Part shown: positions 3,210 through 29,147 of the stretch, piece after piece | How the letters are laid out: every line of letters starts with the position of its first letter | How positions within the stretch are numbered: position 1 is the stretch's first letter | Virus record (IMG/VR): IMGVR_UViG_3300009034_000011 | DNA: 64,000 nucleotides | Source of the DNA: a virus | Strand: one strand, 5' to 3' | Position numbers and translations under genes: made by a program | The notes under the pieces: model-generated | Databases searched by the model: none | Seen by the model: only the letters and a program-made list of their open reading frames with translations | Told to the model about the DNA's origin: nothing

Positions 3210-3250
3210 TGGAGTGAGCGAAAGGACTCGAACCCTTACAGAGGCGGCCC
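3210..3250 (-). pseudogene. tRNA 3'-half fragment (Gly-like T-arm, acceptor 3' strand and CCA) with no 5' half
   Basis: AAGGGUUCGAGUCCUUUCGCUCACUCCA closely matches the 3' end of the intact tRNA-Gly(GCC) at 3900..3974. There is no complementary 5' acceptor strand, and a full-length tRNA would have to run into the ClpP-like CDS. Confidence 0.5.
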
Positions 3251-3877
3251 TTATCTAATCTCATCTACAATTCCCATTCTCAATGCCTGATCGGAGTCGA
3301 ACCATAGATCATGCTCCAAAATCTCATCCAGCTTCTCAGGAGGTACTTTAGTATATTGGCCATATACATCCTTGATCATCTCCATGAATCTATCCAGGTT
3401 CTTCATCTCATCCTTAAGCTCTGAGTACTTACCCCACCACATAGAGGAGAGTTGGTGAATCAGGATATGTGCATGGGGCCGCATAATCCTATGCTCGGCA
3501 GAAACGGTAATGAATGTTGCAGCACTTGCTACTGCCCCATCTACAATGCTTGTTACGGGCGCTTGACATCGTACTACTTCATCCATGGCAGCGAACCCCG
3601 CAAGGAGGCTACCACCATAGGAATGGACGTGGAGGAATATATTGGCTGGATCCCTATCCTGGATCTTCGCTTCGTGCATCAGCTGGTTGGATGTTTCCCG
3701 GAGCCTCCTATTCAGCTGCAGGACCTGTTCTGAGGATACATCTGAGTAGAAATATATCCTATTATCTACAACTTCTACGTATGAGGGTTCCTTAATGATA
3801 TCCGCAGTGGGCTTCCTTGGAACCTCAGGTGCACTGCCACCATACCGATTGCTGCGCCATAGATCCGATGTACCCAT
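3251..3877 (-). CDS. clpP: ClpP-family serine protease (possible prohead protease)
   Basis: 208 aa with ClpP-like fold signature around HVHSYGGSLLAGFAAMD, plus His and Asp downstream. GGAGG Shine-Dalgarno upstream. Confidence 0.6.
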   Translation of the reverse strand: MGTSDLWRSNRYGGSAPEVPRKPTADIIKEPSYVEVVDNRIYFYSDVSSEQVLQLNRRLRETSNQLMHEAKIQDRDPANIFLHVHSYGGSLLAGFAAMDEVVRCQAPVTSIVDGAVASAATFITVSAEHRIMRPHAHILIHQLSSMWWGKYSELKDEMKNLDRFMEMIKDVYGQYTKVPPEKLDEILEHDLWFDSDQALRMGIVDEIR

Positions 3878-4692: not shown

Positions 4693-4977
4693 CTACTCAG
4701 CTCGTTTTAGCGGAGCAAGCAGTTTTTCAACATCCACATCCATATCTATCTGAGTCATAGCGTTAGCCCTGACAACAGCAGCAGTCAACCTGAACAGAGT
4801 ACTCTGGATCTCTGCCATCTTTGCATCAACCGCTACAACATCATATAAAGGCTCTGAAATCTTTTCAGGTTCACCAAGCCAACGGTCCTTTGTAGAAACC
4901 TGATCGCGAAGTCCCTGTAAACTTGCAAGTCTTTGCCTAAGTGTCTTCTGAAGAGCCAACGCCTCGTTAATAGTCAT
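4693..4977 (-). CDS. hypothetical coiled-coil protein
   Basis: 94-aa ORF. Confidence 0.4.
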   Translation of the reverse strand: MTINEALALQKTLRQRLASLQGLRDQVSTKDRWLGEPEKISEPLYDVVAVDAKMAEIQSTLFRLTAAVVRANAMTQIDMDVDVEKLLAPLKRAE

Positions 4978-5211
4978 CTATACCTATACCTCCTTTCAAA
5001 AAGTACATACAGCATATACAGCAGGTTCGTATGAATAATCTTCCCCTATACAAACCCTATCATGAAATAAACAACCTTCACACTGCTCACGGGGTATTTT
5101 CCCATATCTGGGACAGTCAGCCGACCACTTTTTAGTCTTAAGGTCTAAGTGATACGCAACCTTAGTTTCTCTTCGCCCTACAGCCAAACATGACATAAAA
5201 TAACTCCAATA

Positions 5212-5301
5212 TGGCGGAAGGAGCGGGATTCGAACCCGCGGCCGTGTTACCGGACAATAGATTAGCAATCTATCCTCTTAAGCCAACTCGAGCACCCTTC
5301 C
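5212..5301 (-). tRNA. tRNA-Ser (anticodon GCU), type II
   Basis: Acceptor GGAAGGG/UCCUUCC, discriminator G, CCA, 3-bp D-stem, anticodon stem AUAGA/UCUAU, loop UUGCUAA, long variable arm, T-arm GCGGG-UUCGAAU-CCCGC. Confidence 0.75.
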
Positions 5302-5464
5302 GCTTATAACCGTTAATATACTTTTCTTTCATTATATTATATGGGAAAACCTGAGAAACCTCGCAAGAAAACAGCCTGTGCCCGCTCAACCTTAATCGTA
5401 ATAGTATGTGCCATAACTAACACCATTTGGTGGATATGGGGGGATGTGAATCCCCCCATGGAAG

Positions 5465-6037
5465 CTACTCAGTCTCAGACTCGTCAGTCTCCTCTTCATC
5501 AGGAGTTGGCTCTGGCTCTTCCTTCAGAAAGTCCTCATCCCGAATATCAGCAGAACCTATATCATATAAGTTCCGTGCCGCATCAAAGAGAAGTGTCATA
5601 AGTAACCGCTTTTGTTCTCGAGTCTTCGGACGGAAAAGGTCCCCCAGACCAGAAATTGTATCACGATCGATTTCTGGTATCCTGTTAAGACCTTTGTAAT
5701 CGACCCAATCTTCGCCCGGAAGCTCTGGCTCTGACCCTAGCTCTATCTCTAAGAGATCCTCGCCCATTTCATCCCAAGAAGTTTCTACGAACTCCTTTAT
5801 AGCAGTAACATCACTAACATCAGCGAGAGGGTGAAGCACTACCTCTAGGTGAACTCTGTTTTGACATGTAATAGAACTTATAGCAAAGAAATTCTTATCA
5901 GAATTCAGTTTGGGAAGTAAGACATCCACTAACTTTGGGTGTCCCCAAATCTTGACGAGTCTCTCATAATTTCGCTCTTCTGAAGCTCCCTCATCTACCA
6001 CCAAATAAGGTTTCACGTATTGCACCTCCTTTCGCAT
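5465..6037 (-). CDS. hypothetical acidic protein
   Basis: 190 aa, highly acidic C-terminus (EEPEPTPDEEETDESETE). Confidence 0.45.
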   Translation of the reverse strand: MRKEVQYVKPYLVVDEGASEERNYERLVKIWGHPKLVDVLLPKLNSDKNFFAISSITCQNRVHLEVVLHPLADVSDVTAIKEFVETSWDEMGEDLLEIELGSEPELPGEDWVDYKGLNRIPEIDRDTISGLGDLFRPKTREQKRLLMTLLFDAARNLYDIGSADIRDEDFLKEEPEPTPDEEETDESETE

Positions 6038-11855: not shown

Positions 11856-11930
11856 GTTGGTGCACCCGGAAAGATTCGAACTTTCAACCACTAGCTTATC
11901 AGTCTAGCACTCTACCATTGAGTTACGGAT
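11856..11930 (-). tRNA. tRNA-Ile (anticodon GAU)
   Basis: Acceptor GCAUCCG/CGGGUGC, anticodon loop CUGAUAA, T-arm GAAAG-UUCGAAU-CUUUC, A73, CCA. Confidence 0.7.
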
Positions 11931-11948
11931 GCATAAATCCAAATTCAA

Positions 11949-12044
11949 ATTGGTGGAGGCGGCGGTATTGAAACCGCGTCCACAGTACCATAATATGAAA
12001 CTAATTCTAATTAGTTCATAGTACCGCGTCGAATCCTTACGCCC
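11949..12044 (-). ncRNA. 96-nt tmRNA-like tRNA-like domain (TLD-only mini-tmRNA / tRNA-Ala mimic)
   Basis: 5' GGGGGCG-UAA-GGAUUCGACGCGG and 3' GGACGCGGUUUCAAUACCGCC-GCCUCC-A-CCA match the conserved tmRNA 5' element (GGGGCUG..GGAUUCGACGGG) and 3' element (GGACGCGGGUUCAACUCCCGCCAGCUCCACCA). The acceptor stem has a G3:U70 pair. The anticodon arm is replaced by a ~40-nt AU-rich imperfect hairpin. Confidence 0.6.
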
Positions 12045-12268
12045 CCACGTTTAGCGAGTTTCTTCAGTCTCTTCTGACCTAACTCTCTTACAACCTCTGA
12101 CCCATTAACTAATAACATAGGCAACTCCCCTAGAGAGAGTTCTCGTAATAACTTCCGAGCCTGGCGAATATAACCCAAACGGGCATAAGTCCCGATCAAA
12201 TCAACTTGCGAATCAAGCGTCCGACCTCTAAAATGGGAAAGAGCCTCTTTGGAAATCCTTATTGTCAT
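12011..12268 (-). CDS. HEAT-like motif protein (paralog family); last 11 codons overlap the 5' end of the tmRNA-TLD-like RNA
   Basis: LGELPMLLVNGSEVVRELGQKRLKKL, then the reading frame runs into GGGGGCGUAAGGAUUCGACGCGG. Confidence 0.5.
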   Translation of the reverse strand: MTIRISKEALSHFRGRTLDSQVDLIGTYARLGYIRQARKLLRELSLGELPMLLVNGSEVVRELGQKRLKKLAKRGGVRIRRGTMN

Positions 12269-12402
12269 TTCCGGAACCTACAACCCTTACATGGATTCAT
12301 TCTATTTCATAACCAAAATCATAACTGCCCAGAAAAACACTCCAATAGCAATTATTTCTACCGCTGATACCTCAATCATAACTAAACACCTCCGCCTGTA
12401 AA

Positions 12403-12678
12403 AGGTGGCCTTGGCCCAGGGAGTCGAACCCTGGTATAGCTCCGTCGCTGCTGTTACATGGCCCGCTCTCCCACCTCGTCACAGATAGGAGTTAAAGCAC
12501 TCGACGTACTCGCTAAGCTTTCCCTCGTGCCAGCAGAAGGTTGTGACGCACCAGAACTACAGGGACCGTGCCGACGGCCACCAAGATTAGGTACTGTGAA
12601 ATACTCGACCCGTCGCGAATCGGCCCTAACTATTGTAACTCGCAGAGCCCCCATAACCCCAGCGACCACCACCAAGGC
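12403..12678 (-). ncRNA. ~275-nt GC-rich structured RNA with tRNA-like 3' end; possible tmRNA-related RNA, identity unresolved
   Basis: No credible ORF on either strand across 12290-12890. Local GC is clearly above flanking DNA. The 5' GCCUUGG pairs with the 3' CCAAGGC over 7 bp. A T-arm CAGGG-UUCGACU-CCCUG lies 3'-proximal. The 5' third contains GGGCCGAUUCGCGACGGG, resembling the tmRNA GGAUUCGACGGG element. No convincing tag ORF was found. Confidence 0.4.
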
Positions 12679-12894
12679 TACTTATGGCTGTGCCAGGTAA
12701 ACACCTGTAAGCATTACCTGTAGGTAAATAACCCAAGTAAATACCCGCTCCGCTGCATACTGGACTGTGGTCCCCGTCCTCAATAGCTACCTCACAGTAC
12801 CTGAATCAAAGTCGCTCTAGCTCTCTCCTCACTGACTAGTACAGCTTCCTCTCCCAACGGATCGGCGAGTGCTTGCACTAGAGCGACTCAAAAT

Positions 12895-12968
12895 TGGTTG
12901 CGGGGGCGAGAGTTGAACTCGCCTATCGAGCTTATGAGACTCGAGAGCAGCCGCTGCTCCACCCCGCA
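12895..12968 (-). tRNA. tRNA-Met (anticodon CAU; elongator or Ile2-type)
   Basis: Acceptor UGCGGGG/CCCCGCA (U1-A72), anticodon stem CGAGU/GCUCG, loop CUCAUAA, T-arm GCGAG-UUCAACU-CUCGC, A73, CCA. Confidence 0.7.
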
Positions 12969-12976
12969 ACAATAGT

Positions 12977-13050
12977 TGGCTGCCGAGGAAGGATTCGAAC
13001 CCTCACAAGCGGATCCAAGGTCCGCTGACCTACCGTTAGTCTACTCGGCA
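12977..13050 (-). tRNA. tRNA-Gln (anticodon UUG)
   Basis: Acceptor UGCCGAG/CUCGGCA with U1-A72 typical of bacterial Gln, anticodon stem GCGGA/UCCGC, loop CCUUGGA (C33), T-arm GAGGG-UUCGAAU-CCUUC, G73, CCA. Confidence 0.7.
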
Positions 13051-15038: not shown

Positions 15039-15983
15039 CTACCCCTTCAAGAACTCAACCATTGCATTGATATCGAGGTTCTGAGACAATGCAATGTTCT
15101 CGAAGCCCCAGAAGTTTTCAGAAACAACCCTCCCCTGAAACTCCGTTTCCACCCCAAGGCTTCCCAACACATACATTACGGAACGCTTATCCAATAAAGC
15201 ACCCAGGTAGGATACCCAGCTGTTGCAGCCAACTACTACCCCGGCGTCAAAGATCGCCTGGACCACCTCGGCGACATCCCACTGACCCATCATATTAAAG
15301 ATATTATCGCTTAAGTTACTATCTACAATATCTTTAATATGGAGGTAGTCGGTGTAAGTACCTACCAGGCACACTGGAACACCCTCAAACACAGATATCA
15401 CAGCCCTGTAGAGTTCCATAAAATCTCTAGCTTTGAAGTTCCGCGGTGTACGCAATGAGGTAAACGGCTGAAATATCACAGGGTAATCTTGCTTCTTCTT
15501 GTGGCGGATAAACTCCGACAAAATTATATCTGAAGCTAACTTATTTACTCGAAACTTCCTCATACACTCCTTCAAAAGCCTCTCAGTATACCCGTACCGA
15601 TCCAGCCTCGTAATCTCGCGTTGCACTTGTCCAAGTATGTCCTCGATGTCCGGACCATGATACCTGGTAAGGTACGGAAATCTTTCCCAGTACCTCTCGG
15701 GAACAACAACATCAGGTATATCCTTCAGCTCACAGTGCACCTTCATAGGATGCACCTCTATCACGTTAACATCAACTGGGTCGTCTTCAATACCGTGCGG
15801 TGTTAGTATATACCTAGCAGGAACACCGAAATCGAAGTTAATGAAGAACCTATAAAGCAGATGAGGATAATACCCCGTCAGATAGTAAGTTAAATAGTCA
15901 ATTCTGTTTTCATCTGCTAGCACTGCTAGTTTCGGTAATATAACCGCTGAATCCCCTATACCGTATGGACACTTGATAATCAT
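15039..15983 (-). CDS. glycosyltransferase family 9-like (heptosyltransferase-like) protein
   Basis: 314 aa. The N-terminal IIKCPYGIGDSAVILP resembles the GT9 ILVIRLSSLGDVLLTTP motif. Confidence 0.4.
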   Translation of the reverse strand: MIIKCPYGIGDSAVILPKLAVLADENRIDYLTYYLTGYYPHLLYRFFINFDFGVPARYILTPHGIEDDPVDVNVIEVHPMKVHCELKDIPDVVVPERYWERFPYLTRYHGPDIEDILGQVQREITRLDRYGYTERLLKECMRKFRVNKLASDIILSEFIRHKKKQDYPVIFQPFTSLRTPRNFKARDFMELYRAVISVFEGVPVCLVGTYTDYLHIKDIVDSNLSDNIFNMMGQWDVAEVVQAIFDAGVVVGCNSWVSYLGALLDKRSVMYVLGSLGVETEFQGRVVSENFWGFENIALSQNLDINAMVEFLKG

Positions 15984-18696: not shown

Positions 18697-18811
18697 CTAT
18701 TGATGCGCCAGGTGGTACTCGAAACCACACCCTCTACTCGGCTTCTAGTGGTGACCGGTATCGCGCCGTTCGCGGTAGAGAACTGCCACTTCGGACTGAC
18801 GCAAACTAGTT

Positions 18812-19241: not shown

Positions 19242-19333
19242 ATCTAATTAAACGGATTTGGATAGTTACGCATTATATTTTCACCTCATTATATTATATG
19301 CGAAGAATTCAAATTTATCGCAAGCTACTTTAT

Positions 19334-19406
19334 TGGAGGCCACGGCAAGGACTTGAACCTTACGTCCAGAGTCTCCTCTAGCTCTACCCCTGAGTCTTAC
19401 GTGACC
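19334..19406 (-). ncRNA. tRNA-like RNA lacking an anticodon loop (acceptor, T-arm and CCA present; anticodon arm replaced by a 6-bp GAGA-tetraloop hairpin)
   Basis: Acceptor GGUCACG/CGUGGCC, T-arm UAAGG-UUCAAGU-CCUUG, discriminator U, encoded CCA, a D-like CUC..GAG stem, and a central CUAGAG-GAGA-CUCUGG hairpin instead of a 7-nt anticodon loop. Confidence 0.45.
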
Positions 19407-19516
19407 AAAAGAGTGATGCGGCCCTACGGGGTGCGTAATCCCGATTCGACGGACTCACATGGACACAGGACCATGATTACACGCAACCTATGCCGCTCCA
19501 TCTTCGGGCCGCATAA
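19407..19516 (-). ncRNA. ~110-nt structured RNA between two tRNA genes (closed by a 9-bp helix AUGCGGCCC/GGGCCGCAU)
   Basis: No ORF. Long-range terminal pairing encloses internal hairpins (CAUGG-UCCUGUG-UCCAUG; GCGUGUAAUC..GAUUACGCAC). The 3' side ends in CUCUUUU. Confidence 0.35.
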
Positions 19517-24071: not shown

Positions 24072-25781
24072 CTAGACTCGTCCAAGCAGGAACTCACTAA
24101 TCACATTTGGCGTCGCAGTATCAAACCCTACGACATCAAGCATTCCCACGTCAGTAGGATCTGCTATAGAGATATCATTAGCAGTCATACCTACAACAAC
24201 CAACTTAGCCTCTGGATTGATTGTATTACGGTAGCGATCCAAAGCCTGAGATGGATGCTCGTCACCATACCACGTCTCACTATCTGTATAGACGAGAAAT
24301 GCATCATACACCACATCCGAGTTTTTCTTATGCATTTGCTCAGCCCACAAGATTGGGAGAGCGCAGTTAGTTCCACCGAAGTTAAGCCCATCGGTATACC
24401 TTACAAGGTCGTCTAATCTTTGACGCTTGGACATATTGACTTCCACGAAGCGATGACAAAACGCCATAACAGATACCAAAGGCTCAACCTTGTAAGTAAC
24501 CATCGACATTGCACATGCACCCATCCTTGGCGTCATAGCAGGAATGCCAACGATATTACCTCCGTTCATGGAGCCGCTAACATCGAGACCAATGACGATT
24601 CTCTTGTTAGTTGGTTCAACATTCTTAAAAGCCTTGTAGAAGGCGCTATCTAGCGCGTCAACTACATCACCAACAACATTCCACTCGCCACGACCTCGTG
24701 CTCCACGGCCCTGACCGTAAGTCACCATAGCGGCTAGTACACCAAGTGGGTGTACTCTAGCTTTCGCTAAGATTTCCTCGTCAGTTAGCTGATCGCATAC
24801 CCTTTGGATAACCTTAAAGTTACCGTCAACTAGAAGGCCAACCTTGGACATATTGCCAAGGTTCCGTATCATGGCAGTCATCGGCATGCCACGACCCGCC
24901 GTAAGCATTGCTGCCCAAACCTTCTTATCGCTAAGAAACTGGGTTGGAATGCACTCACGAGGCAAGTTATGCTCCCTGATGAGCTTAACTATATCGGCAA
25001 CGGAGGTAGCTGCCTTGGCTTCCTCGAAAGCTCCGATGAACTTTGGCATAACCTCCCAGTGTTCTGCTTTTGCCTTATCAACTACCCAAGCGTACAGAGC
25101 ACCGTGAGGGCTGATATAATATTTCCCCTTCTCCACTGCATCTGCACTTAAGGTATCTGGTACAGAAACTGCCTTATTTGGGTTTGGGTGTGCAAGTCTC
25201 AACACGTCAAAGTGAGACCAGCCATCTCTCGACTGGTACTTAGCTAACTGGTACGCAAGGCCATCTGCATTTCTACCATTGTACCAACTCGCGATAGCAT
25301 CTTTATAACCCCTACCCCAACCCCGGAATGCTTCGGTATAGGCAACGAGGTGGAATAGATGAGTTCCAATACGAGCTATCTTTGGTATAGCTTGAAAAGC
25401 AGCTCTCCTCGTTTCTATATCCTGTAGAGTTGGATGCTTGCCTCCTGCTCCGAGACACATAGCTAAGACAAAGAGGGCGTAATCATTCTTAGGTGCCCTG
25501 CCGGAATCACTTATCTCAACTATCGTGTCAACTACCCTCTTACCGTCTTCTTTAATACAACGGCGGGTAGAATCGCACGCATCCTTGGTCAGTTTTCTTT
25601 CACTTACGTAATAAGTGCCCCCTTCTGTACCAAGGACTAGAAAACGATTCAATAGCATCCAGTCGTCCACCTTCCAGGCAAACCCTCCGGCATTGTTCAT
25701 CTCCATATCTTCACGGCCTGGAATGCGCTCTGTTTGAGGCGTCTTAATTCTAACCCCTTGCGTAAGTAAATGCTTCCTCAT
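24072..25781 (-). CDS. rsr: Ro60 ortholog Rsr (TROVE domain plus C-terminal vWA with MIDAS motif)
   Basis: 569 aa. C-terminal IVIGLDVSGSMNGG MIDAS motif plus downstream T and D. N-terminal ~380 aa helical, TROVE-like. Flanked on its upstream side by Y RNA-like genes. Confidence 0.6.
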   Translation of the reverse strand: MRKHLLTQGVRIKTPQTERIPGREDMEMNNAGGFAWKVDDWMLLNRFLVLGTEGGTYYVSERKLTKDACDSTRRCIKEDGKRVVDTIVEISDSGRAPKNDYALFVLAMCLGAGGKHPTLQDIETRRAAFQAIPKIARIGTHLFHLVAYTEAFRGWGRGYKDAIASWYNGRNADGLAYQLAKYQSRDGWSHFDVLRLAHPNPNKAVSVPDTLSADAVEKGKYYISPHGALYAWVVDKAKAEHWEVMPKFIGAFEEAKAATSVADIVKLIREHNLPRECIPTQFLSDKKVWAAMLTAGRGMPMTAMIRNLGNMSKVGLLVDGNFKVIQRVCDQLTDEEILAKARVHPLGVLAAMVTYGQGRGARGRGEWNVVGDVVDALDSAFYKAFKNVEPTNKRIVIGLDVSGSMNGGNIVGIPAMTPRMGACAMSMVTYKVEPLVSVMAFCHRFVEVNMSKRQRLDDLVRYTDGLNFGGTNCALPILWAEQMHKKNSDVVYDAFLVYTDSETWYGDEHPSQALDRYRNTINPEAKLVVVGMTANDISIADPTDVGMLDVVGFDTATPNVISEFLLGRV

Positions 25782-25799
25782 AACTACACACCCCCTGTA

Positions 25800-25868
25800 T
25801 TAAGTTGGGCAAGTTATCGGAGTGGGATAGACCGGGATTGCTCCCTGGTGGTCGATAATCCACTTCCT
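25800..25868 (-). ncRNA. Y RNA-like unit 13 (Ro60/Rsr-binding helix), immediately upstream of the rsr start
   Basis: 5' UUGGGCCGGAGGAAGUGGAUUAUC pairs with 3' CCAC-UCCG-AUAACUU-GCCCAA to give a bulged helix. An internal GGGA-GCAA-UCCC tetraloop hairpin is present. The motif matches the conserved Y-RNA 5' strand GGUCCGAUGGUAGUGGGUUAUC. Confidence 0.55.
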
Positions 25869-26309
25869 CCGGCCCAACATTACAAAACCAGCCAGTGGTC
25901 TCCCACAGCGGTCCCGGTTCACCGTGGCTGGCAATAGCGCCCCCGGGTTAACAAGAATAAAGGGCAAATGCTGCTCGTGAGAGTTGGCTTGCGCCAAAGG
26001 CGAGTTAACTACTCCACCGCCCCGAAGGGCAGGTCAGATTGGGTACTGACGTCTCCTCGTTATGAACGATAACTCACGAACGCCGGCCCTTTATTCTAAC
26101 TACCTCATAGAGAGGTATTCTAGTTGTCAGAAGTGACGGAACGGCTTCGCGTTGGATATCTCTAGTAGCAGCGAACAAATGCCTCATCCCATTGAGCTTT
26201 ATATATCGCTTTTTCTTTTTACACCACACCCTCGTATCGTTCCCCGGTTCCCAACGAGCTTGGGGACAAGTATCACATCGTGCCACTATGTCTCACCCCT
26301 TTCGAAACA

Positions 26310-26391
26310 GTTCCGTTATTTAAGATATTGGGCAAATAGTAGATAAAGGAGTGTCAATTTTCGGGTTGATAACCTTCATCCTCCGGCCCAA
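26310..26391 (-). ncRNA. Y RNA-like unit 12
   Basis: 5' UUGGGCCGGAGGAUGAAGGUUAUC with 3' partner CUCCUUUAUCUACUAUUU-GCCCAA. Lies between the HNH gene and a structured spacer upstream of rsr. Confidence 0.5.
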
Positions 26392-26420
26392 TAATAGGTG
26401 CACACTTCACGCTGCCGCAT

Positions 26421-26882
26421 TTAAATATCATAGTCAGAAGCAAAGGCGTCTTCCCACTTCCAGTAGCCCCGCTTCTTAACCGTGCGCTTCCTATGGCAGT
26501 TAGCGCAACACACTTCACATTTAGCTATCTCAGCTTTAATGGTAGCTAGGGCATATCCGTGCGTTACCATTTCTCCAACTTGATAACGTTTCTCCCCACG
26601 CACATGATCAAATTCCAGAACCAATGGATCCGATTCACCACAATCGACACACGGATGGGTATTCAAATAGTGAATCAAAAAAGCTTTATTCGCAGCGATT
26701 CGCCTTCGCATATTCACGCGAACTACCCTCATATAATGGGGCTTATTGTTCTGGAAATATTCCCTATGGTAAGCAGCAACACACGCCTTACACGTATTCT
26801 TTCTGTTCCGTTTAGCCGGGGATCGAAAACTAAATTCCTCCTCCGGCTTCACCTCGTTACATTTTATACACTGCTTATTCAC
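26421..26882 (-). CDS. HNH endonuclease with N-terminal zinc finger
   Basis: CVDCGESDPLVLEFDHVRG ... NCHRKRT HNH motif. CxxC...CxxC N-terminus. Confidence 0.6.
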   Translation of the reverse strand: MNKQCIKCNEVKPEEEFSFRSPAKRNRKNTCKACVAAYHREYFQNNKPHYMRVVRVNMRRRIAANKAFLIHYLNTHPCVDCGESDPLVLEFDHVRGEKRYQVGEMVTHGYALATIKAEIAKCEVCCANCHRKRTVKKRGYWKWEDAFASDYDI

Positions 26883-26902
26883 TATGCTACCTTCTTTAAA
26901 GT

Positions 26903-26978
26903 TGGTCGGGGAGACAGGACTCGAACCTGCAATCTCCAGCTCCCAGGGCTGGCCCGCTAAGCCATTGCGTCACTCCCC
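26903..26978 (-). tRNA. tRNA-Pro (anticodon UGG)
   Basis: Acceptor CGGGGAG/CUCCCCG with C1-G72 typical of bacterial Pro, anticodon stem CCAGC/GCUGG, loop CCUGGGA, T-arm GCAGG-UUCGAGU-CCUGU, A73, CCA. Confidence 0.7.
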
Positions 26979-27109
26979 GACAATATATTGGACGGTGAAC
27001 CCCAACTTTTAGTGCGGCTATGGGAGATGGATGTTGCGGTCCACCGTCCGGAGGCGGATTCCGACGAGTTGTGCGGCTATGGGAGATGAATTGTCGGAAT
27101 CCGCCCGAG

Positions 27110-27181
27110 TCATATATGGGCAAGTGGTTGACAGTGGGAGGAGCCAAATTTGCGGTTCGGTAACCCACTGCCTCCGGCCCA
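27110..27181 (-). ncRNA. Y RNA-like unit 11 (mini Y: Ro-binding helix only)
   Basis: 5' UUGGGCCGGAGGCAGUGGGUUACC pairs with 3' CUCCUCCCACUG..GCCCA. It is followed (27000-27110) by a 13-bp hairpin GGCGGAUUCCGAC..GUCGGAAUCCGCC and a duplicated AUCUCCCAUAGCCGCAC motif. Confidence 0.5.
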
Positions 27182-27449
27182 ATTAACATAATCACTCACC
27201 TGCTGGAACTAAAAGACGCTTCATAGGTTCTGAAGGACTTTCCTGGAGTTTACAATCTCCCAAGTATCGGGATACTGAATCGACAAGAGGAACAGCAACT
27301 GCATAAGCGTTTTTTGTCACAGACAGATCAGCACCCGCGGCAGCTTGCTGCAACTTCTTCGCGACCAATACCATCAGTTCCGTTCGTACAGCCGGTGTCA
27401 ACTCAACAACTTCAAGACTAGCCATACCTTTACCTCACGCCGCAATTAA

Positions 27450-27596
27450 ATGCTGGACAAGGTGTCGCAAATGGGACGCTTTCCGACGCTCCACCACTGA
27501 GCTATGCGCCGTGCGGCCGAACCGTTCAGAGGCACAACTGGAATCGAACCAGTGACATCCGGAATTGAATGGTAACCCACCTACTACGGTCCAGCA
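27450..27596 (-). ncRNA. Y RNA-like unit 10 with permuted tRNA-like module
   Basis: 5' CUGGACCGUAGUAGGUGGGUUACC, then T-arm ACUGG-UUCGAUU-CCAGU, a loop-closed acceptor-like hairpin, D-arm GCUC-AGUGGUGGA-GAGC, then the 3' Ro strand CCCAUUUGCGACACCUUGUCCAG. Confidence 0.55.
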
Positions 27597-27609
27597 AGAT
27601 AAAATCGTT

Positions 27610-27730
27610 GGGCTAAAATTGCCAATGGGTGAAATGGTTCCGGGGGTTGGATTCAAACCAACGCGTATCGCCCTCGGGCGGTGCTCTATCAACTGAGCTA
27701 CCCTGGATAACCCATACAGCAGCGGCCCAA
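27610..27730 (-). ncRNA. Y RNA-like unit 9 with embedded near-complete tRNA-like domain (acceptor, D-arm, mini-hairpin, T-arm, CCA) in normal order
   Basis: 5' UUGGGCCGCUGCUGUAUGGGUUAUC, then UCCAGGG-UA-GCUC-AGUUGAUA-GAGC, then CGCC-CGAG-GGCG hairpin in place of the anticodon arm, then GUUGG-UUUGAAU-CCAAC, then CCCCGGA-A-CCA, then 3' Ro strand CCCAUUGGCAAUUUUAGCCCAA. Confidence 0.5.
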
Positions 27731-27746
27731 CGATGCTCTCTTTCAA

Positions 27747-27821
27747 TTTGGCTGTCCTGGTCGGCTTCGAACCGACAACCCCCTGATTAACAGTCAGGTG
27801 CGCTACCAGTTGCGCCACAGG
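27747..27821 (-). tRNA. tRNA-Asn (anticodon GUU), embedded in the Y-RNA array
   Basis: Acceptor UGUCCUG/CAGGACA, D GCGC/GCGC, anticodon stem CCUGA/UCAGG, loop CUGUUAA, T-arm GUCGG-UUCGAAG-CCGAC, G73, CCA. Confidence 0.75.
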
Positions 27822-28084
27822 ACAACAAGTGTGGGTTGATAGTAAATAAAAGATATGTATAAGACAATATCTCCCGCCTATCAACCCACTCCGGGCAAAT
27901 GGCAGATGAGGTCGAGCATGCACACAATGTACATTAAGCTCTACGATTATTACAGTCCGTCGACCGGTGCTTTTTTGACGGTCCACGCGACCGATGTATT
28001 TATCGTTTATACTCGGTCCACATGACCGAGTACGTTTATCTAGGTCCGCCGACCGTGGTTTCATCGTATGGTAATCCTCATCTA

Positions 28085-28240
28085 ACGGCCCGAATAAGAT
28101 GAATGAACGGACAAGGTGCGGAGTGGACCTTTTTATTGAGCTACCACCCCAAGAACATCGAGGTAGGCTGGACACGAACCAGCAACACTCAGCTTGATAA
28201 GCTGATGCTCTATCCGATAACCCACATCCTACGGTCCGTT
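28085..28240 (-). ncRNA. Y RNA-like unit 8 with permuted tRNA-like module
   Basis: 5' CGGACCGUAGGAUGUGGGUUAUC, T-arm GCUGG-UUCGUGU-CCAGC, acceptor-like hairpin CUACC..GGUAG, 3' strand ..CCUUGUCCG. Confidence 0.45.
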
Positions 28241-28244
28241 CAAG

Positions 28245-28385
28245 AAGATATGAATGGGCAAAAGGTGTCAGTGGATGTGTTCGCGCTGAGCCATTCAGCT
28301 TCGGACGCCATAATGACGCCCGACGGGATTCGAACCCGCAACCTCGCCTCCCTAAGAAGATAACCCACAAGACATCGGCCCATTC
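28245..28385 (-). ncRNA. Y RNA-like unit 7 with permuted tRNA-like module
   Basis: 5' UGGGCCGAUGUCUUGUGGGUUAUC, T-arm GCGGG-UUCGAAU-CCCGU, loop-closed acceptor mimic CGGGCGUC-AUUAU-GGCGUCCG, 3' strand CCACUGACACC..GCCCA. Confidence 0.55.
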
Positions 28386-28394
28386 ATGATTAAA

Positions 28395-28522
28395 TGAATG
28401 GACAAAAGGTTGCACGAAGATGTTTGACGCTCTAACCAGTTGAGCTACTACCTTTCGGTAGGGAAGGACTTGAACCTTCCATCGCCTCATTGGAAGTGAG
28501 ATAACCTTCACGCGTCCGGTCC
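28395..28522 (-). ncRNA. Y RNA-like unit 6 with permuted tRNA-like module
   Basis: 5' UGGACCGGACGCGUGAAGGUUAUC, T-arm GGAAGG-UUCAAGU-CCUUCC, acceptor mimic CUACC-GAAA-GGUAG, D-arm GCUC-AACUGGUUA-GAGC, 3' strand CUUCGUG..UGUCCA. Flanked by the CCAUUCAU-GAUUAA-AUGAAUGG inter-unit hairpin. Confidence 0.6.
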
Positions 28523-28534
28523 ATTCATGCTTAT

Positions 28535-28672
28535 CACGATTAAATGAATGGACAAAAGTGTACAAGGAGTTTTTTACGCGCTCTGGCCGCTGAGCTACCC
28601 AGGCATTCGGAGCCTGGGGTCGGGAATCGAACCCGACGACCTCGCCATTAACATTGGATAACCCTCGTACGT
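28535..28672 (-). ncRNA. Y RNA-like unit 5 with permuted tRNA-like module
   Basis: 5' UGGACCGACGUACGAGGGUUAUC, T-arm GUCGGG-UUCGAUU-CCCGAC, acceptor mimic CCCAGGC-UCCGAAU-GCCUGGG, D-arm GCUC-AGCGGCCA-GAGC, 3' strand CCUUGUAC..UGUCCA. Confidence 0.6.
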
Positions 28673-28674
28673 CG

Positions 28675-28769
28675 GTCCATTCATACTTGTTGTCAACTAA
28701 CAGACGGGCAGGTGGTGTGCGAGGTGCACACGTTTTGGTCTGTCGACCAATGTAATGATAACCCTCGCA
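28675..28769 (-). ncRNA. Y RNA-like unit 4 (mini Y, no tRNA-like module)
   Basis: 5' UGGGCCGGAGUGCGAGGGUUAUC pairs with 3' CCUCGCACACCACCUGCCCG. Internal hairpin GGUC-GACA-GACC. Confidence 0.5.
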
Positions 28770-28774
28770 CTCCG

Positions 28775-28963
28775 GCCCATTAGAGATAGCGACCCCGCTG
28801 CAGGTACTATCCCTATATTTGGGGTGGACAAAGAATGCTAATGGAGTTGACTCCCCTTTGGGGAGCTGCCTAACCACTAGGCTATCCGGGCGCGCGACCC
28901 GAGACTCTCGTCCCGGGCCTGAGCCCGGAATAAGATTCGAACTTATGTGATAACCCATCAACT
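28775..28963 (-). ncRNA. Y RNA-like unit 3 (long form with tRNA-like elements)
   Basis: 5' UGGACCGGAGUUGAUGGGUUAUC, weak T-arm AUAAG-UUCGAAU-CUUAU, CCGGGC-UCAG-GCCCGG hairpin, D-arm GCCU-AGUGGUUA-GGC, CUCCCC-AAA-GGGGAG hairpin, 3' strand ..UUGUCCACC. Confidence 0.45.
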
Positions 28964-28965
28964 CC

Positions 28966-29047
28966 GGTCCACCGCCATATTCGAAACGAGCAGGCAAAGA
29001 AGGCGATAATGGGAAGTCAAATGGTAGATAACCCACTATCTCCGGCC
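28966..29047 (-). ncRNA. Y RNA-like unit 2 (mini Y)
   Basis: 5' UGGGCCGGAGAUAGUGGGUUAUC with 3' partner CCCAUUAUCGCC. Confidence 0.5.
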
Positions 29048-29049
29048 CA

Positions 29050-29147
29050 CCCGATAATTGTCGGGGAGGACTTAATGGGCGAGGGTCGAGTGAGGGAACG
29101 TCAATTTCCTGGTTGATAACCCTCACTCTCCGGCCCATCTAATCTCT
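29050..29147 (-). ncRNA. Y RNA-like unit 1 (mini Y), first unit of the array
   Basis: 5' UGGGCCGGAGAGUGAGGGUUAUC, a 23-nt loop, then CCCUCACUCGACCCUCGCCC forming a long bulged helix. Confidence 0.55.

What the first reader, a model, noticed from the sequence alone, without database searches (positions are those of the whole stretch)
12290..12890. GC-rich ~275-nt structured RNA with tRNA-like 3' end in a 600-bp gene desert
No plausible ORF exists on either strand across about 600 bp. GC content rises sharply relative to flanking DNA. The minus-strand transcript has a 7-bp terminal helix (GCCUUGG/CCAAGGC) and a canonical T-arm (CAGGG-UUCGACU-CCCUG) near the 3' end. Its 5' third has a tmRNA-like GGGCCGAUUCGCGACGGG element. 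I could not find a convincing tag-peptide reading frame, so it may be an unusual tmRNA, a two-piece partner of the adjacent TLD mimic, or a novel tRNA-like ncRNA.
Basis: seen in the sequence. Interest (0 to 1): 0.6.

Follow-up and report, generated by a model that had tools for sequence, protein, structure and literature searches.

The report
New phage RNA plus tRNA-like tail
The "gene desert" holds two separable non-coding RNA elements inside a phage tRNA array: a conserved, pseudoknotted RNA of about 220 nt that matches no described RNA family, followed by a tRNA-like cassette of about 185 nt.

Summary
The region is non-coding, GC-rich and contains a canonical T-arm, so the raw observation holds. 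The proposed ~275-nt RNA closed by GCCUUGG/CCAAGGC is not supported.

Three related phage contigs (L004, L011, L027) show two separable elements on the minus strand:
- **Core, 12586-12806.** It is closed by an 18-bp P1 plus a 10-bp P2. Pairing is 99.6% across 4 sequences, against 35-43% in slid controls. Nine pairs show compensatory changes. One loop-loop pseudoknot candidate covaries. There is one copy per genome and no Rfam match.
- **tRNA-like cassette, 12400-12585.** It has an acceptor-like closing stem, a canonical T-arm, GCCA and a U run. It belongs to a set of such cassettes that come and go: absent after the core in L027, a clean 193-nt indel between L004 and L011.

The "tmRNA-like" element is the variable hairpin P6.

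tmRNA, two-piece tmRNA, intron-tRNA, Y RNA and protein-coding readings all failed their tests.

My best reading is a stable trans-acting phage ncRNA matured from the tRNA-array transcript, with the tRNA-like cassette as a processing or termination handle. Its function is unknown. The closest analogues by context are GOLLD and ROOL.

The parts
12809..12889 (-). A 5' hairpin with a 13-bp closing stem (GAGUCGCUCUAGU / GCUAGAGCGACUU), between tRNA-Met (12895-12968) and the core. It is specific to this window. Relatives have other elements here.
   Evidence: It appears in the MFE and centroid fold of 12400-12895. No homologue was found in L004, L011 or L027; the only match is a weak nhmmer hit to L007, E = 0.015.
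12586..12806 (-). Conserved core RNA of 221 nt. The invariant block runs GUACUGUGAGG...UCACAGUAC (12591-12800).
- P1: 12788-12806 with 12586-12603
- P2: 12776-12787 with 12629-12639
- P3 hairpin: 12762-12773
- Invariant segment AGUAUGCA, left unpaired in the consensus structure: 12754-12761
- P4: 12747-12753 with 12642-12648
- Variable middle domain
- P5 hairpin: 12655-12679
- P6 hairpin: 12607-12626
   Evidence: - Homologues are L004 20284-20506, L011 2743-2926 and L027 2802-2985.
- Core identity is 77-90% where neighbouring proteins are 40-72% identical.
- Pair counts: 99.6% of cells paired, 9 pairs changed on both sides, 0/500 shuffles reach the observed score, slid controls 35-43%.
- Fold z = -4.02 on the minus strand against -1.73 on the plus strand.
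- The covariance model finds one copy per genome.
- No Rfam hit at E<=10.
12767..12771 (-). 5' half of a candidate pseudoknot or kissing interaction. It reads ACCAC here and AUCAC in L011/L027.
   Evidence: It carries the only substitution in the otherwise invariant 53-nt 5' block (C>U). That change is matched by G>A in the P5 loop, so C-G becomes U-A. This is one evolutionary event only.
12665..12669 (-). P5 loop GUGGU (GUGAU in L011/L027), the 3' half of the candidate pseudoknot.
12400..12585 (-). tRNA-like cassette ('module A').
- Canonical T-arm: 12417-12433
- Acceptor-like closing stem next to the T-arm. Its register is ambiguous: CUUGGUG 12579-12585 with GGCCAAG 12410-12416 in tRNA geometry, or GGUGGCC 12576-12582 with GGCCACC 12404-12410 plus GGC/GCC
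- G73 at 12409, CCA at 12406-12408, U run at 12400-12403
- Conserved 5' motif GGCACGG at 12566-12572
   Evidence: - The MFE closes the module with its own ends next to the T-arm; z = -2.1.
- The homologous module L011 2927-3117 has the same ends and a diverged interior.
- The paralogous module B in L004/L011 and element E1 share the architecture.
- The module is a clean 193-nt indel between L004 and L011 and is absent after the core in L027.
- Two further homologues appear as mis-called ORFs, P0024 and P0025.
12302..12379 (-). Possible small ORF of 25 aa (MIEVSAVEIIAIGVFFWAVMILVMK) behind GGAGGU. The ribosome-binding site sits in a hairpin (12387-12407) that starts in the tail of module A.
   Evidence: L004 and L011 carry an unrelated-looking 37-aa hydrophobic ORF upstream of the core instead. 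Coding status was not tested.

Best explanation
The 600-bp gap encodes a composite non-coding RNA locus on the minus strand. It sits inside the phage's tRNA array, between tRNA-Met and tRNA-Ile.

**Element 1, the core (12586-12806).** This is a lineage-conserved, compactly folded RNA. A long helix of 18 + 10 bp, formed by its own 5' and 3' ends, carries a three-way junction (P1/P2/P6) and then a second junction. That junction has a small hairpin (P3), an invariant single-stranded AGUAUGCA, and a helix (P4) that closes a replaceable middle domain ending in hairpin P5. The P3 region and the P5 loop are complementary and covary.

**Element 2, module A (12400-12585).** This is one of a family of tRNA-like cassettes. 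Its own ends form an acceptor-like stem stacked on a canonical T-arm, followed by (G)CCA and a U run. A variable multi-helix interior replaces the D and anticodon half.

**Inferred mechanism.** The array is transcribed as a polycistronic precursor and cut by the host tRNA-processing enzymes. RNase P cleavage at the 5' side of the tRNA-like cassette, together with 3' processing of tRNA-Met upstream, would release the core as a stable RNA whose ends are protected in P1. This resembles the way MALAT1 or MEN-beta 3' ends are made by cleavage at a downstream tRNA-like mascRNA. The cassette's closing stem plus U run may also act as a terminator. The core would then act in trans as a structured RNA, either as a protein-binding scaffold or as a self-associating RNA.

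**Shown versus inferred.**
- Shown: non-coding nature, strand, structure, conservation, modularity, and lack of membership in known families.
- Inferred: transcription, RNase P/Z processing, trans action, and any function.
For: - **Non-coding.** No family hits were found for any ORF. Substitutions show no codon periodicity (8/6/7). Indels are 3+1+1 nt. Frames differ among homologues.
- **Strand.** Many G-U pairs fit only the minus strand. Fold z = -4.0 (minus) against -1.7 (plus).
- **Structure.** Searches support it. The outer 5 bp of P1 covary in three lineages. P4 switches GCGGAGC/GCUCUGC to GCGAAAA/UUUUUGC. P5 carries 6 varying pairs, all still paired.
- **Conservation above background.** The 5' block is 53 nt identical between window and L004, and 131 columns are invariant in 4 lineages. 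Flanking proteins are only 40-72% identical.
- **Separability.**
- **tRNA-likeness of the cassette.** It has a G53-C61 T-stem, a UUCGACU loop, and a closing stem abutting the T-arm in winA, L011A and E1. CCA is encoded, as in all this phage's tRNAs.
- **Context.** The element lies directly downstream of tRNA-Met in window, L004 and L011. A second 'closed structured RNA + tRNA-like' pair lies at 19242-19516.
Against: - No expression data are available. Promoter and terminator scans are uninformative.
- Only four independent lineages are held, forming two subtypes. Several 'compensatory' changes may trace to a single domain swap.
- In L027 the core sits between two ORFs with no tRNA or T-arm beside it. 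tRNA-type processing therefore cannot be obligatory, and a cis role in mRNA remains possible.
- The invariant sequence of the inner P1 and P2 helices is unusual for a purely structural helix and is unexplained.
- The register of the cassette's closing stem is ambiguous.
- No function-defining motif was found.
Confidence: 0.55

Rival explanations
1. The core is a cis-acting element of the polycistronic transcript rather than a stable trans-acting RNA. It could be an RNase III-type processing site or an insulator. The roughly 28-bp P1/P2 duplex would be the cleavage substrate, and the rest would tune it.
For: The perfect duplex formed by the element's own ends is long enough for RNase III. In L027 the core is intercistronic: it lies 7 nt after a stop codon and 20 nt before a ribosome-binding site and start codon. 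The flanking genes differ in every genome.
Against: Processing hairpins do not usually need about 130 invariant positions, an invariant single-stranded octamer, a second multi-helix junction and a covarying loop-loop contact. There is one copy per genome, although many intercistronic junctions exist.
Confidence: 0.2
2. It is a Y-RNA-type partner of the phage's own Ro60 protein (24072-25781). It would tether Ro60 to a nuclease, like YrlA RNAs, which also mimic tRNA.
For: The phage and all relatives encode Ro60. The window carries at least 11 Y-RNA-like genes, some with embedded T-arms. Published work shows YrlA RNAs contain T-arms, and that M. smegmatis YrlA is cut by RNase P and receives CCA (PMC4201824). 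P6 begins GGGCCGA, as does Y element 28252-28382.
Against: - No hit to YrlA, Y_RNA or sbRNA models at E<=10 in the target. The genuine Y elements do score.
- The phage's Y RNAs all carry GG(G/A)CCG...GUGGGUUAUC at the 5' end and CUUG(U/C)CCA at the 3' end, in the terminal stem. Neither the core nor module A has these.
- The GGGCCGA motif is not conserved in relatives (GGGUCGG, GGGUCGU).
- The locus lies about 11 kb from the Ro60 gene, whereas YrlA genes lie within 4 kb.
Confidence: 0.07
3. It is an unusual one-piece tmRNA, or the mRNA-like partner of the adjacent TLD-only element (a two-piece tmRNA).
For: The topology of module A, a tRNA-like top half closing a large insert, is that of tmRNA. 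A TLD-only tmRNA lies 350 nt downstream. At a lowered threshold ARAGORN proposes a permuted tmRNA at 11951-12393.
Against: - No tmRNA model hit in the target.
- No GGAUUCGAC or GGAC-T-arm signature and no G3-U70 in module A.
- No tag frame is conserved.
- The TLD is a closed hairpin with both acceptor strands, and it was not found in the held parts of the relatives that carry the RNA.
- The low-threshold ARAGORN call does not cover the target RNA.
Confidence: 0.03
4. It is a tRNA gene interrupted by a large intron. At a relaxed threshold ARAGORN calls tRNA-Val(aac) at 12406-12676 with a 185-nt intron.
For: makes this prediction. A T-arm and CCA are present.
Against: - The call appears only at a lowered threshold.
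- Its 5' half is hairpin P5 of the core and is not conserved as a tRNA half.
- In L004 the same settings give an unrelated call (tRNA-SeC).
- There is no group I or II intron hit.
- The 30 tRNAs already cover all 20 amino acids.
Confidence: 0.02
5. It is a protein-coding gene hidden by frameshifts or sequencing errors.
For: Gene callers elsewhere have produced ORFs over homologous DNA (P0024, P0025).
Against: - Those ORFs disagree with each other and with the window. The window has a stop where P0024 has Gln, and P0025 is frameshifted.
- No Pfam or PHROG hits.
- A search of 1.84 billion representatives found nothing else credible. The other two hits, P0023 and P0026, are long multi-stretch, repetitive-looking proteins, and I did not inspect P0023.
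- No codon periodicity was seen, while compensatory base-pair changes are present.
Confidence: 0.02

Closest known systems
GOLLD and ROOL RNAs (large ornate RNAs of phages and prophages)
   Same: Both are structured, pseudoknotted ncRNAs of unknown function found in phage tRNA islands. The GOLLD env-38 example also lies downstream of a tRNA-Met, and GOLLD can carry tRNAs in its variable region (PMC12286853; PMC5737381). The present RNA also has a conserved part, a replaceable part and tRNA-like units attached.
   Different: There is no sequence or structure match to Rfam GOLLD or ROOL at E<=10. The core is much smaller, 185-221 nt against about 580-800 nt. Oligomerisation is unknown. It has been seen only in one rare phage lineage.
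tmRNA, and TLD-only tmRNA of mycobacteriophage DS6A
   Same: Module A has a tRNA-like top half (acceptor-like stem plus T-arm, no anticodon arm) closing a large insert. A genuine TLD-only tmRNA lies next door at 11951-12046. This kind is already reported in a phage and is thought to titrate SmpB (PMC4131195).
   Different: Module A and the core fail every tmRNA sequence or structure test run here: no model hit, no SmpB-type D-loop analogue sequence, no G3-U70, no tag.
YrlA / bacterial and phage Y RNAs
   Same: These are tRNA-mimicking ncRNAs in Ro60-encoding genomes. Some are RNase P substrates that receive CCA (PMC4201824). The same phage carries a large Y RNA array.
   Different: The target has no Ro60-binding helix or motif and a different topology: its T-arm is at the 3' end, not internal. 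It lies far from the Ro60 gene and gives no model hit.
MALAT1/MEN-beta with mascRNA-type tRNA-like 3' modules; tRNA-linked ncRNAs generally
   Same: A structured RNA is followed directly by a tRNA-like element that can recruit RNase P to define the upstream RNA's 3' end. The only Rfam alignment to the target's T-arm is to the mascRNA-menRNA model (14.9 bits, not significant).
   Different: That system is eukaryotic and unrelated in sequence. The analogy concerns mechanism only and is untested here.
phi29-family packaging RNA (pRNA)
   Same: By my recollection of the literature, pRNA is about 120-174 nt. It has a long helix formed by the 5' and 3' ends, a three-way junction, and two loops whose complementarity covaries and drives ring formation.
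   Different: There is no sequence relation. The phage type and gene context differ. Here the loop-loop pairing rests on one covarying pair and could equally be intramolecular.

Membership tests
tmRNA (RF00023 and permuted forms) | Match to the tmRNA covariance models, or an ARAGORN tmRNA call | tested here: not met
   There are no hits in 12290-12890 at the gathering threshold or at E<=10. The same scans find the neighbouring TLD at 60.8 bits.
tmRNA (RF00023 and permuted forms) | The 5' and 3' ends of the RNA pair to form an acceptor stem with G3-U70 and an ACCA end | tested here: not met
Module A's own closing stem has no G3-U70 in any register.
tmRNA (RF00023 and permuted forms) | A conserved tag-peptide reading frame with a resume codon and an in-frame stop | tested here: not met
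   Frames starting at the conserved GCA GCG give 24, 44 and 10 aa in window, L004 and L011, with unrelated ends. Module frames are not conserved.
tmRNA (RF00023 and permuted forms) | Alanylation and SmpB binding | not testable with these tools
   This needs biochemistry.
tRNA with intron | Cloverleaf halves (acceptor, D-arm, anticodon stem) conserved on both sides of the insert | tested here: not met
   Only a relaxed-threshold ARAGORN call exists. It is not reproduced in L004, and its 5' half is core hairpin P5.
tRNA with intron | A recognisable group I or group II intron core | tested here: not met
   No Rfam intron hit at E<=10.
Y RNA / YrlA | A terminal stem with the Ro60-binding motif (GGUCCGA / GNCGAA-type 5' strand, with a bulged helix) | tested here: not met
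   The motif is absent from the P1 stem. The GGGCCGA in P6 is not conserved. The phage's genuine Y RNAs show the motif clearly.
Y RNA / YrlA | Match to the YrlA, Y_RNA or sbRNA models, and a location within a few kb of the Ro60 gene | tested here: not met
   No hits. The locus lies about 11.3 kb from the Ro60 gene in the window and about 10.4 kb in L004.
Y RNA / YrlA | Physical binding to Ro60 | not testable with these tools
   This needs a pull-down or EMSA.
GOLLD / ROOL | Match to RF01998 or RF03087 (conserved multi-junction architecture) | tested here: not met
   No hit at E<=10 in the window region, in the core alone, or in L004.
GOLLD / ROOL | Phage or prophage location next to tRNA genes | tested here: met
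   The locus lies inside a 30-tRNA array, directly after tRNA-Met in 3 of 4 lineages.
GOLLD / ROOL | Homo-oligomeric cage assembly | not testable with these tools
   The only hint is a covarying loop-loop complementarity.
tRNA-like element (acceptor/T-arm minihelix) | A canonical T-arm: 5-bp stem ending in G53-C61 and a loop of the form UUCRANN | tested here: met
   12417-12433 reads CAGGG-UUCGACU-CCCUG. It is conserved in L011 module A (UUCAACC loop) and in module B.
tRNA-like element (acceptor/T-arm minihelix) | An acceptor-like stem formed by the element's own ends, abutting the T-stem, with a 3' NCCA | tested here: inconclusive
   A closing stem next to the T-arm is predicted in winA, L011A and E1. 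G-CCA is encoded in the window. The register is ambiguous (three alternatives), and L011A and module B lack an encoded CCA.
tRNA-like element (acceptor/T-arm minihelix) | Recognition by RNase P, the CCA-adding enzyme, or TruB/TrmA | not testable with these tools
   This needs enzymology or modification mapping.

The most novel reading that the evidence does not exclude
The core is the first member of a new class of small 'ornate' phage RNAs that self-assemble. The covarying ACCAC/GUGGU (AUCAC/GUGAU) complementarity would be an intermolecular kissing contact, as in phi29 pRNA rings or the GOLLD/ROOL cages. The invariant P1/P2 rod would project outward, carrying the covalently linked tRNA-like cassette. 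It would be part of an unusually RNA-centred arsenal in this lineage: 30 tRNAs, at least 11 Y RNAs with Ro60, a TLD-only tmRNA and several tRNA-like cassettes. That arsenal would be aimed at host translation, RNA surveillance or tRNA-targeting defences.
Probability: 0.1. Interest if true: 0.85.

Novelty: new variant of a known kind. Interest (0 to 1): 0.6.

Why it matters
Phage tRNA islands are known to harbour large structured RNAs (GOLLD, ROOL) whose functions remain unknown even though their structures are solved.

This locus adds a much smaller, covariation-supported, pseudoknotted RNA with the same genomic habit. It is attached to swappable tRNA-like cassettes, and the phage lineage also carries Ro60, a record-looking Y-RNA array and a TLD-only tmRNA. 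A 185-221-nt RNA is far easier to probe, mutate and solve than GOLLD or ROOL.

The natural modular variants are ready-made experiments:
- the core alone in L027
- the core with one or two cassettes
- two versions of the middle domain

If the tRNA-like cassettes prove to be RNase P handles or decoys, that would show how phages build and deploy ncRNAs from tRNA operons.

The result also shows that gene callers mis-annotate this locus as protein (P0024, P0025).

Tried and rejected
**Searches for more homologues**
- Rfam at gathering and E<=10 thresholds on the window, the region, the core alone and the relatives gave nothing but tRNAs and the TLD.
- blastn (distant mode) of 11900-13000 against 50,697 phage records gave no match.
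- Exact and degenerate DNA patterns from the T-arm, the TLD and four core blocks were run against IMG/VR. Six scans returned nothing. A seventh, all-R/Y pattern was rejected by the tool and never ran.
- One degenerate pattern against JGI metagenomes gave 0 hits, not even the source contig.
- One pattern against 185,579 genomes gave 5 hits, none recovered by an nhmmer search with the core, so I treat them as chance matches.
- Protein-anchored scans of IMG/VR and JGI metagenomes found no relatives.
- Exact-protein look-ups for window ORFs and JGI-only proteins were not on record.
- Homologues were finally reached through neighbouring proteins in Logan and ENA contigs. Loci L020, L021, L028 and L007-L010 do not contain the RNA.

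**Tests of identity and function**
- ARAGORN with introns, or permuted tmRNA at lowered thresholds, gave inconsistent calls.
- A tag-peptide search in all frames of all modules found nothing conserved.
- A search for RNA targets complementary to the invariant AGUAUGCA stretch gave nothing meaningful.
- The promoter and terminator scan was uninformative.

**Considered from memory and dropped**
I considered resemblances of the core to RNase P RNA, 6S RNA, SRP RNA and the sarcin-ricin loop. None was backed by a model hit or by conserved positions, so I dropped them.
Full report
**Setting.** The window is a phage-like genome segment with every gene on the minus strand. ARAGORN finds 30 tRNAs between 20 and 27824, covering all 20 amino acids. 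The target gap lies between tRNA-Met (12895-12968) and a 96-nt element at 11951-12046. Rfam scores that element as a tmRNA whose mRNA-like domain is deleted (60.8 bits), and tRNA-Ile follows it. The window also encodes a Ro60/TROVE-vWA protein (24072-25781), a family A DNA polymerase, a ribonucleotide reductase and a flotillin-like protein. The polymerase is only about 30% identical to anything in 50,697 phage records. The target DNA has no blastn match there.

**Checking the observation.**
- The gap has no ORF above 80 aa on either strand, and none of its ORFs hits Pfam or PHROGs.
- GC is 0.55-0.57, like the tRNA clusters and above the 0.38-0.46 of the neighbouring coding DNA.
- The T-arm CAGGG-UUCGACU-CCCUG is at 12417-12433, followed by GGCCAAG-G-CCA-CC-UUUU.
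- The two 7-mers of the proposed terminal helix exist, at 12672-12678 and 12408-12414.
- However, the 273-nt RNA they would delimit folds no better than shuffled sequence (z = -1.3). The whole 496-nt gap does fold better (z = -3.7).

**Finding relatives.** Direct DNA pattern scans of IMG/VR, JGI metagenomes and one-genome-per-species contigs found nothing real. Relatives were reached through neighbouring proteins:
- a 314-aa protein (15039-15983) has 8 homologues at 54-60% identity
- a 70-aa protein has 7
- a 92-aa protein has 4

Their contigs gave three independent homologues of the RNA:
- L004 20284-20506 (nhmmer E = 3e-48)
- L011 2743-2926, also present in L012-L014
- L027 2802-2985

The lineage is rare, and all its members seen here carry Ro60 and tRNA arrays.

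The strongly conserved block runs from GUACUGUGAGG (12800) to UCACAGUAC (12591).
- Window and L004 are 90% identical over it, including 53 consecutive identical bases. The L011 and L027 forms are 77-80% identical to them and 36 nt shorter.
- Flanking proteins are only 40-72% identical.
- The 21 substitutions between window and L004 fall 8/6/7 over the three phases. Nineteen are transitions, and there are indels of 3, 1 and 1 nt.
- The RNA is therefore constrained as RNA, not as protein.

**Structure of the core** (alignment A5).
- P1 has 18 bp. The inner 13 are invariant. The outer 5 lie outside the conserved sequence and covary in three lineages.
- P2 has 7 + 3 bp.
- Hairpin P6 branches between the 3' strands of P2 and P1.
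- Beyond P2 come hairpin P3 (GGAY-CACA-GUCC) and an invariant single-stranded AGUAUGCA.
- P4 closes the middle domain and switches from GCGGAGC/GCUCUGC to GCGAAAA/UUUUUGC, which is three compensatory pairs.
- The middle domain is variable, and window and L004 carry two extra hairpins there.
- Hairpin P5 has 10 bp, six of which vary and all of which remain paired.
- Overall 99.6% of cells are standard pairs, against 35-43% when partners are slid. Nine pairs change on both sides, against 0-4 when slid. No shuffle of 500 reaches the observed score.
- The window core folds with z = -4.0 on the minus strand and -1.7 on the plus strand. Its many G-U pairs fit only the minus strand.
- A candidate tertiary contact joins ACCAC (12767-12771) to the P5 loop GUGGU (12665-12669). 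The single substitution in the invariant 5' block (C>U) is matched by G>A in that loop. This is one event, so it is suggestive only.
- A covariance model built from A5 finds exactly one copy in each of the four genomes, and nothing else in the 140 kb held.

GCCUUGG is the 5' strand of P5. Its changes in relatives (AUCUCGG, CUCCUAG, CUCCUGG) are absorbed inside P5, with no matching change after the T-arm. The 'tmRNA-like' GGGCCGAUUCGCGACGGG is P6, the least conserved hairpin. The 3' strand CCAAGGC has a nearer partner, because the 8-mer CUUGGUGG occurs twice: in P5 and at 12578-12585.

**The tRNA-like part is a separate cassette.**
- In L011 the order is: tRNA-Met, a 160-nt element E1 ending in a T-arm, a 37-aa hydrophobic ORF, the core, module A (T-arm CCAGGG-UUCAACC-CCCUGG, then GCCCCAAC-UUUUU), and module B (T-arm CGGGG-UUCGACU-CCCCG, then a U-rich hairpin).
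- L004 is about 97% identical to L011 in the flanks. It lacks module A as a clean 193-nt indel and carries the other version of the core's middle domain.
- L027 has the core between two ORFs, with no T-arm in the 270 nt that follow.
- The window's 12400-12585 corresponds to module A. The ends match (GGCACGG near the 5' end; ACCAGGGUUCRACYCCCUGGGCC at the 3' end), while the interior has diverged.
- MFE folds of window module A, L011 module A and E1 each close the module with its own ends next to the T-arm.
- In the window, tRNA geometry is met by CUUGGUG (12579-12585) pairing with GGCCAAG (12410-12416), giving 6 of 7 pairs, followed by G73 and CCA. In that register the first base follows directly on the last pair of P1.
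- Two other registers are possible: GGUGGCC/GGCCACC plus GGC/GCC, or UGG/CCA plus GGC/GCC.
- A phmmer search of the longest ORF over module A against 1.84 billion representatives returned only two meaningful hits, P0024 and P0025. They are ORFs called over further homologues of module A, with mutually inconsistent frames. So the cassette exists in more contigs, and gene callers mistake it for protein.

**Tests of known families.**
- tmRNA: no model hit, no ARAGORN call, no conserved tag, and no conserved end-to-end pairing.
- Two-piece tmRNA: the TLD is self-contained, and it was not found in the held parts of the relatives.
- Intron-containing tRNA: there is only a relaxed-threshold ARAGORN call, and it is not reproducible in L004.
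- Y RNA: the window has a striking array of at least 11 Y-RNA-like genes upstream of Ro60, with textbook GG(G/A)CCG...GUGGGUUAUC and CUUG(U/C)CCA signatures. Neither the core nor module A has these, or any model hit.
- GOLLD and ROOL: no model hit. The context is the same, though. Both are phage tRNA-island RNAs, and GOLLD env-38 lies downstream of tRNA-Met (PMC12286853; PMC5737381).

**Most likely mechanism (inference).**
- The array is transcribed as a precursor. tRNA-Met processing and RNase P cleavage at the tRNA-like cassette release a core whose ends are locked in P1. This follows the logic of tRNA-like 3' modules elsewhere.
- The closing stem plus U run of each cassette also resembles an intrinsic terminator.
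- A second pair of this form, a closed structured RNA followed by a tRNA-like element with CCA, lies at 19242-19516. The arrangement therefore recurs.
- What the core does is unknown. Its invariant helices and invariant octamer point to specific recognition by a protein or another RNA. Its covarying loop-loop contact leaves room for self-assembly.
- The main rival is a cis-acting processing element, favoured by the intercistronic position in L027.

**Verdict.** It is a new RNA family with GOLLD/ROOL-like habits plus a new variant of tRNA-like cassette, in an RNA-rich phage lineage. The evidence base is four lineages and no expression data.

Noticed in passing
window 25800-29060 (-), upstream of the Ro60 gene at 24072-25781: A tandem array of at least 11 Y-RNA-like genes gives hits to sbRNA RF01656, YrlA RF02553 and Y_RNA RF00019; one hit reaches the gathering score. 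Each element has the GG(G/A)CCG...GUGGGUUAUC 5' signature and the CUUG(U/C)CCA 3' signature. Several have embedded tRNA-like T- and D-arms. They are interleaved with tRNA-Pro, tRNA-Asn and two weak tRNA-like hits. The mechanical 567-aa ORF at 27435-29138 overlaps them and is probably not a gene. By my recollection, published loci have about 1-4 Y RNAs, so this array looks exceptionally large.
   Followed up: partly
window 11951-12046 (-): A 96-nt tmRNA consisting of the tRNA-like domain only (G3-U70, A73, encoded CCA, P2 closed as a hairpin); Rfam tmRNA scores it 60.8 bits. This is the same kind as the TLD-only tmRNA reported for mycobacteriophage DS6A, proposed to inhibit trans-translation by titrating SmpB (PMC4131195). 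Its 5' 36 nt overlap the end of ORF 12011-12268, which has a weak PHROG hit (E = 0.004). It was not found in the held parts of the related contigs.
   Followed up: partly
window 19242-19516 (-): An unannotated pair sits between tRNA-Glu and tRNA-Trp. The first part is a ~105-nt RNA closed by a 9-bp helix (AUGCGGCCC/GGGCCGCAU) with an inner 10-bp helix. The second is a 76-nt tRNA-like element (GGUCACG...CGUGGCC-U-CCA, T-arm at 19346-19362) without a normal anticodon arm. The layout matches the target locus: a closed RNA followed by a tRNA-like element.
   Followed up: partly
window 18698-18810 (-): An unannotated ~100-nt tRNA-like RNA has the acceptor-like stem GCGUCAG/CUGGCGC and a T-arm at 18712-18728. 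It begins with CAGUCCGAAGUGG, close to the Ro60-binding GGUCCGA motif of animal Y RNAs. It may be a Y-like RNA lying outside the main array.
   Followed up: no
window 3221-3237 (-); L011 5422-5438 (+) within the gene-free stretch 4925-5471: Further orphan T-arm hairpins are not assigned to any tRNA. The window one lies immediately after the stop codon of ORF 3251-3877. This suggests that T-arm cassettes or terminators are a general feature of this lineage.
   Followed up: no
L004 19985-20150 and L011 2445-2605 (+): Element E1 directly follows tRNA-Met. It is about 160 nt, closed by GUGGGC/GCCUAC with a G3-U70-like wobble, has a canonical T-arm, and ends ...CCUACCAUCUUUUU. It is nearly identical in the two phages and absent from the window, which has an unrelated hairpin (12809-12889) in that position.
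   Followed up: partly
window 15039-15983 (-); L001, L004, L007 next to Ro60: A 314-aa protein gives a sub-threshold glycosyltransferase-9 hit. It has only 8 homologues among 5.8 billion proteins. In the relatives it lies immediately downstream of the Ro60 gene, whereas in the window it has moved about 8 kb away. It may be a lineage-specific partner of the Ro60 module.
   Followed up: no
window 12302-12379 (-); L004 20168-20281; L011 2627-2740: Small hydrophobic ORFs of 25 aa and 37 aa, each with a strong ribosome-binding site, sit beside the RNA locus. They lie on opposite sides of the core in different genomes, and no sequence similarity between them is evident.
   Followed up: no
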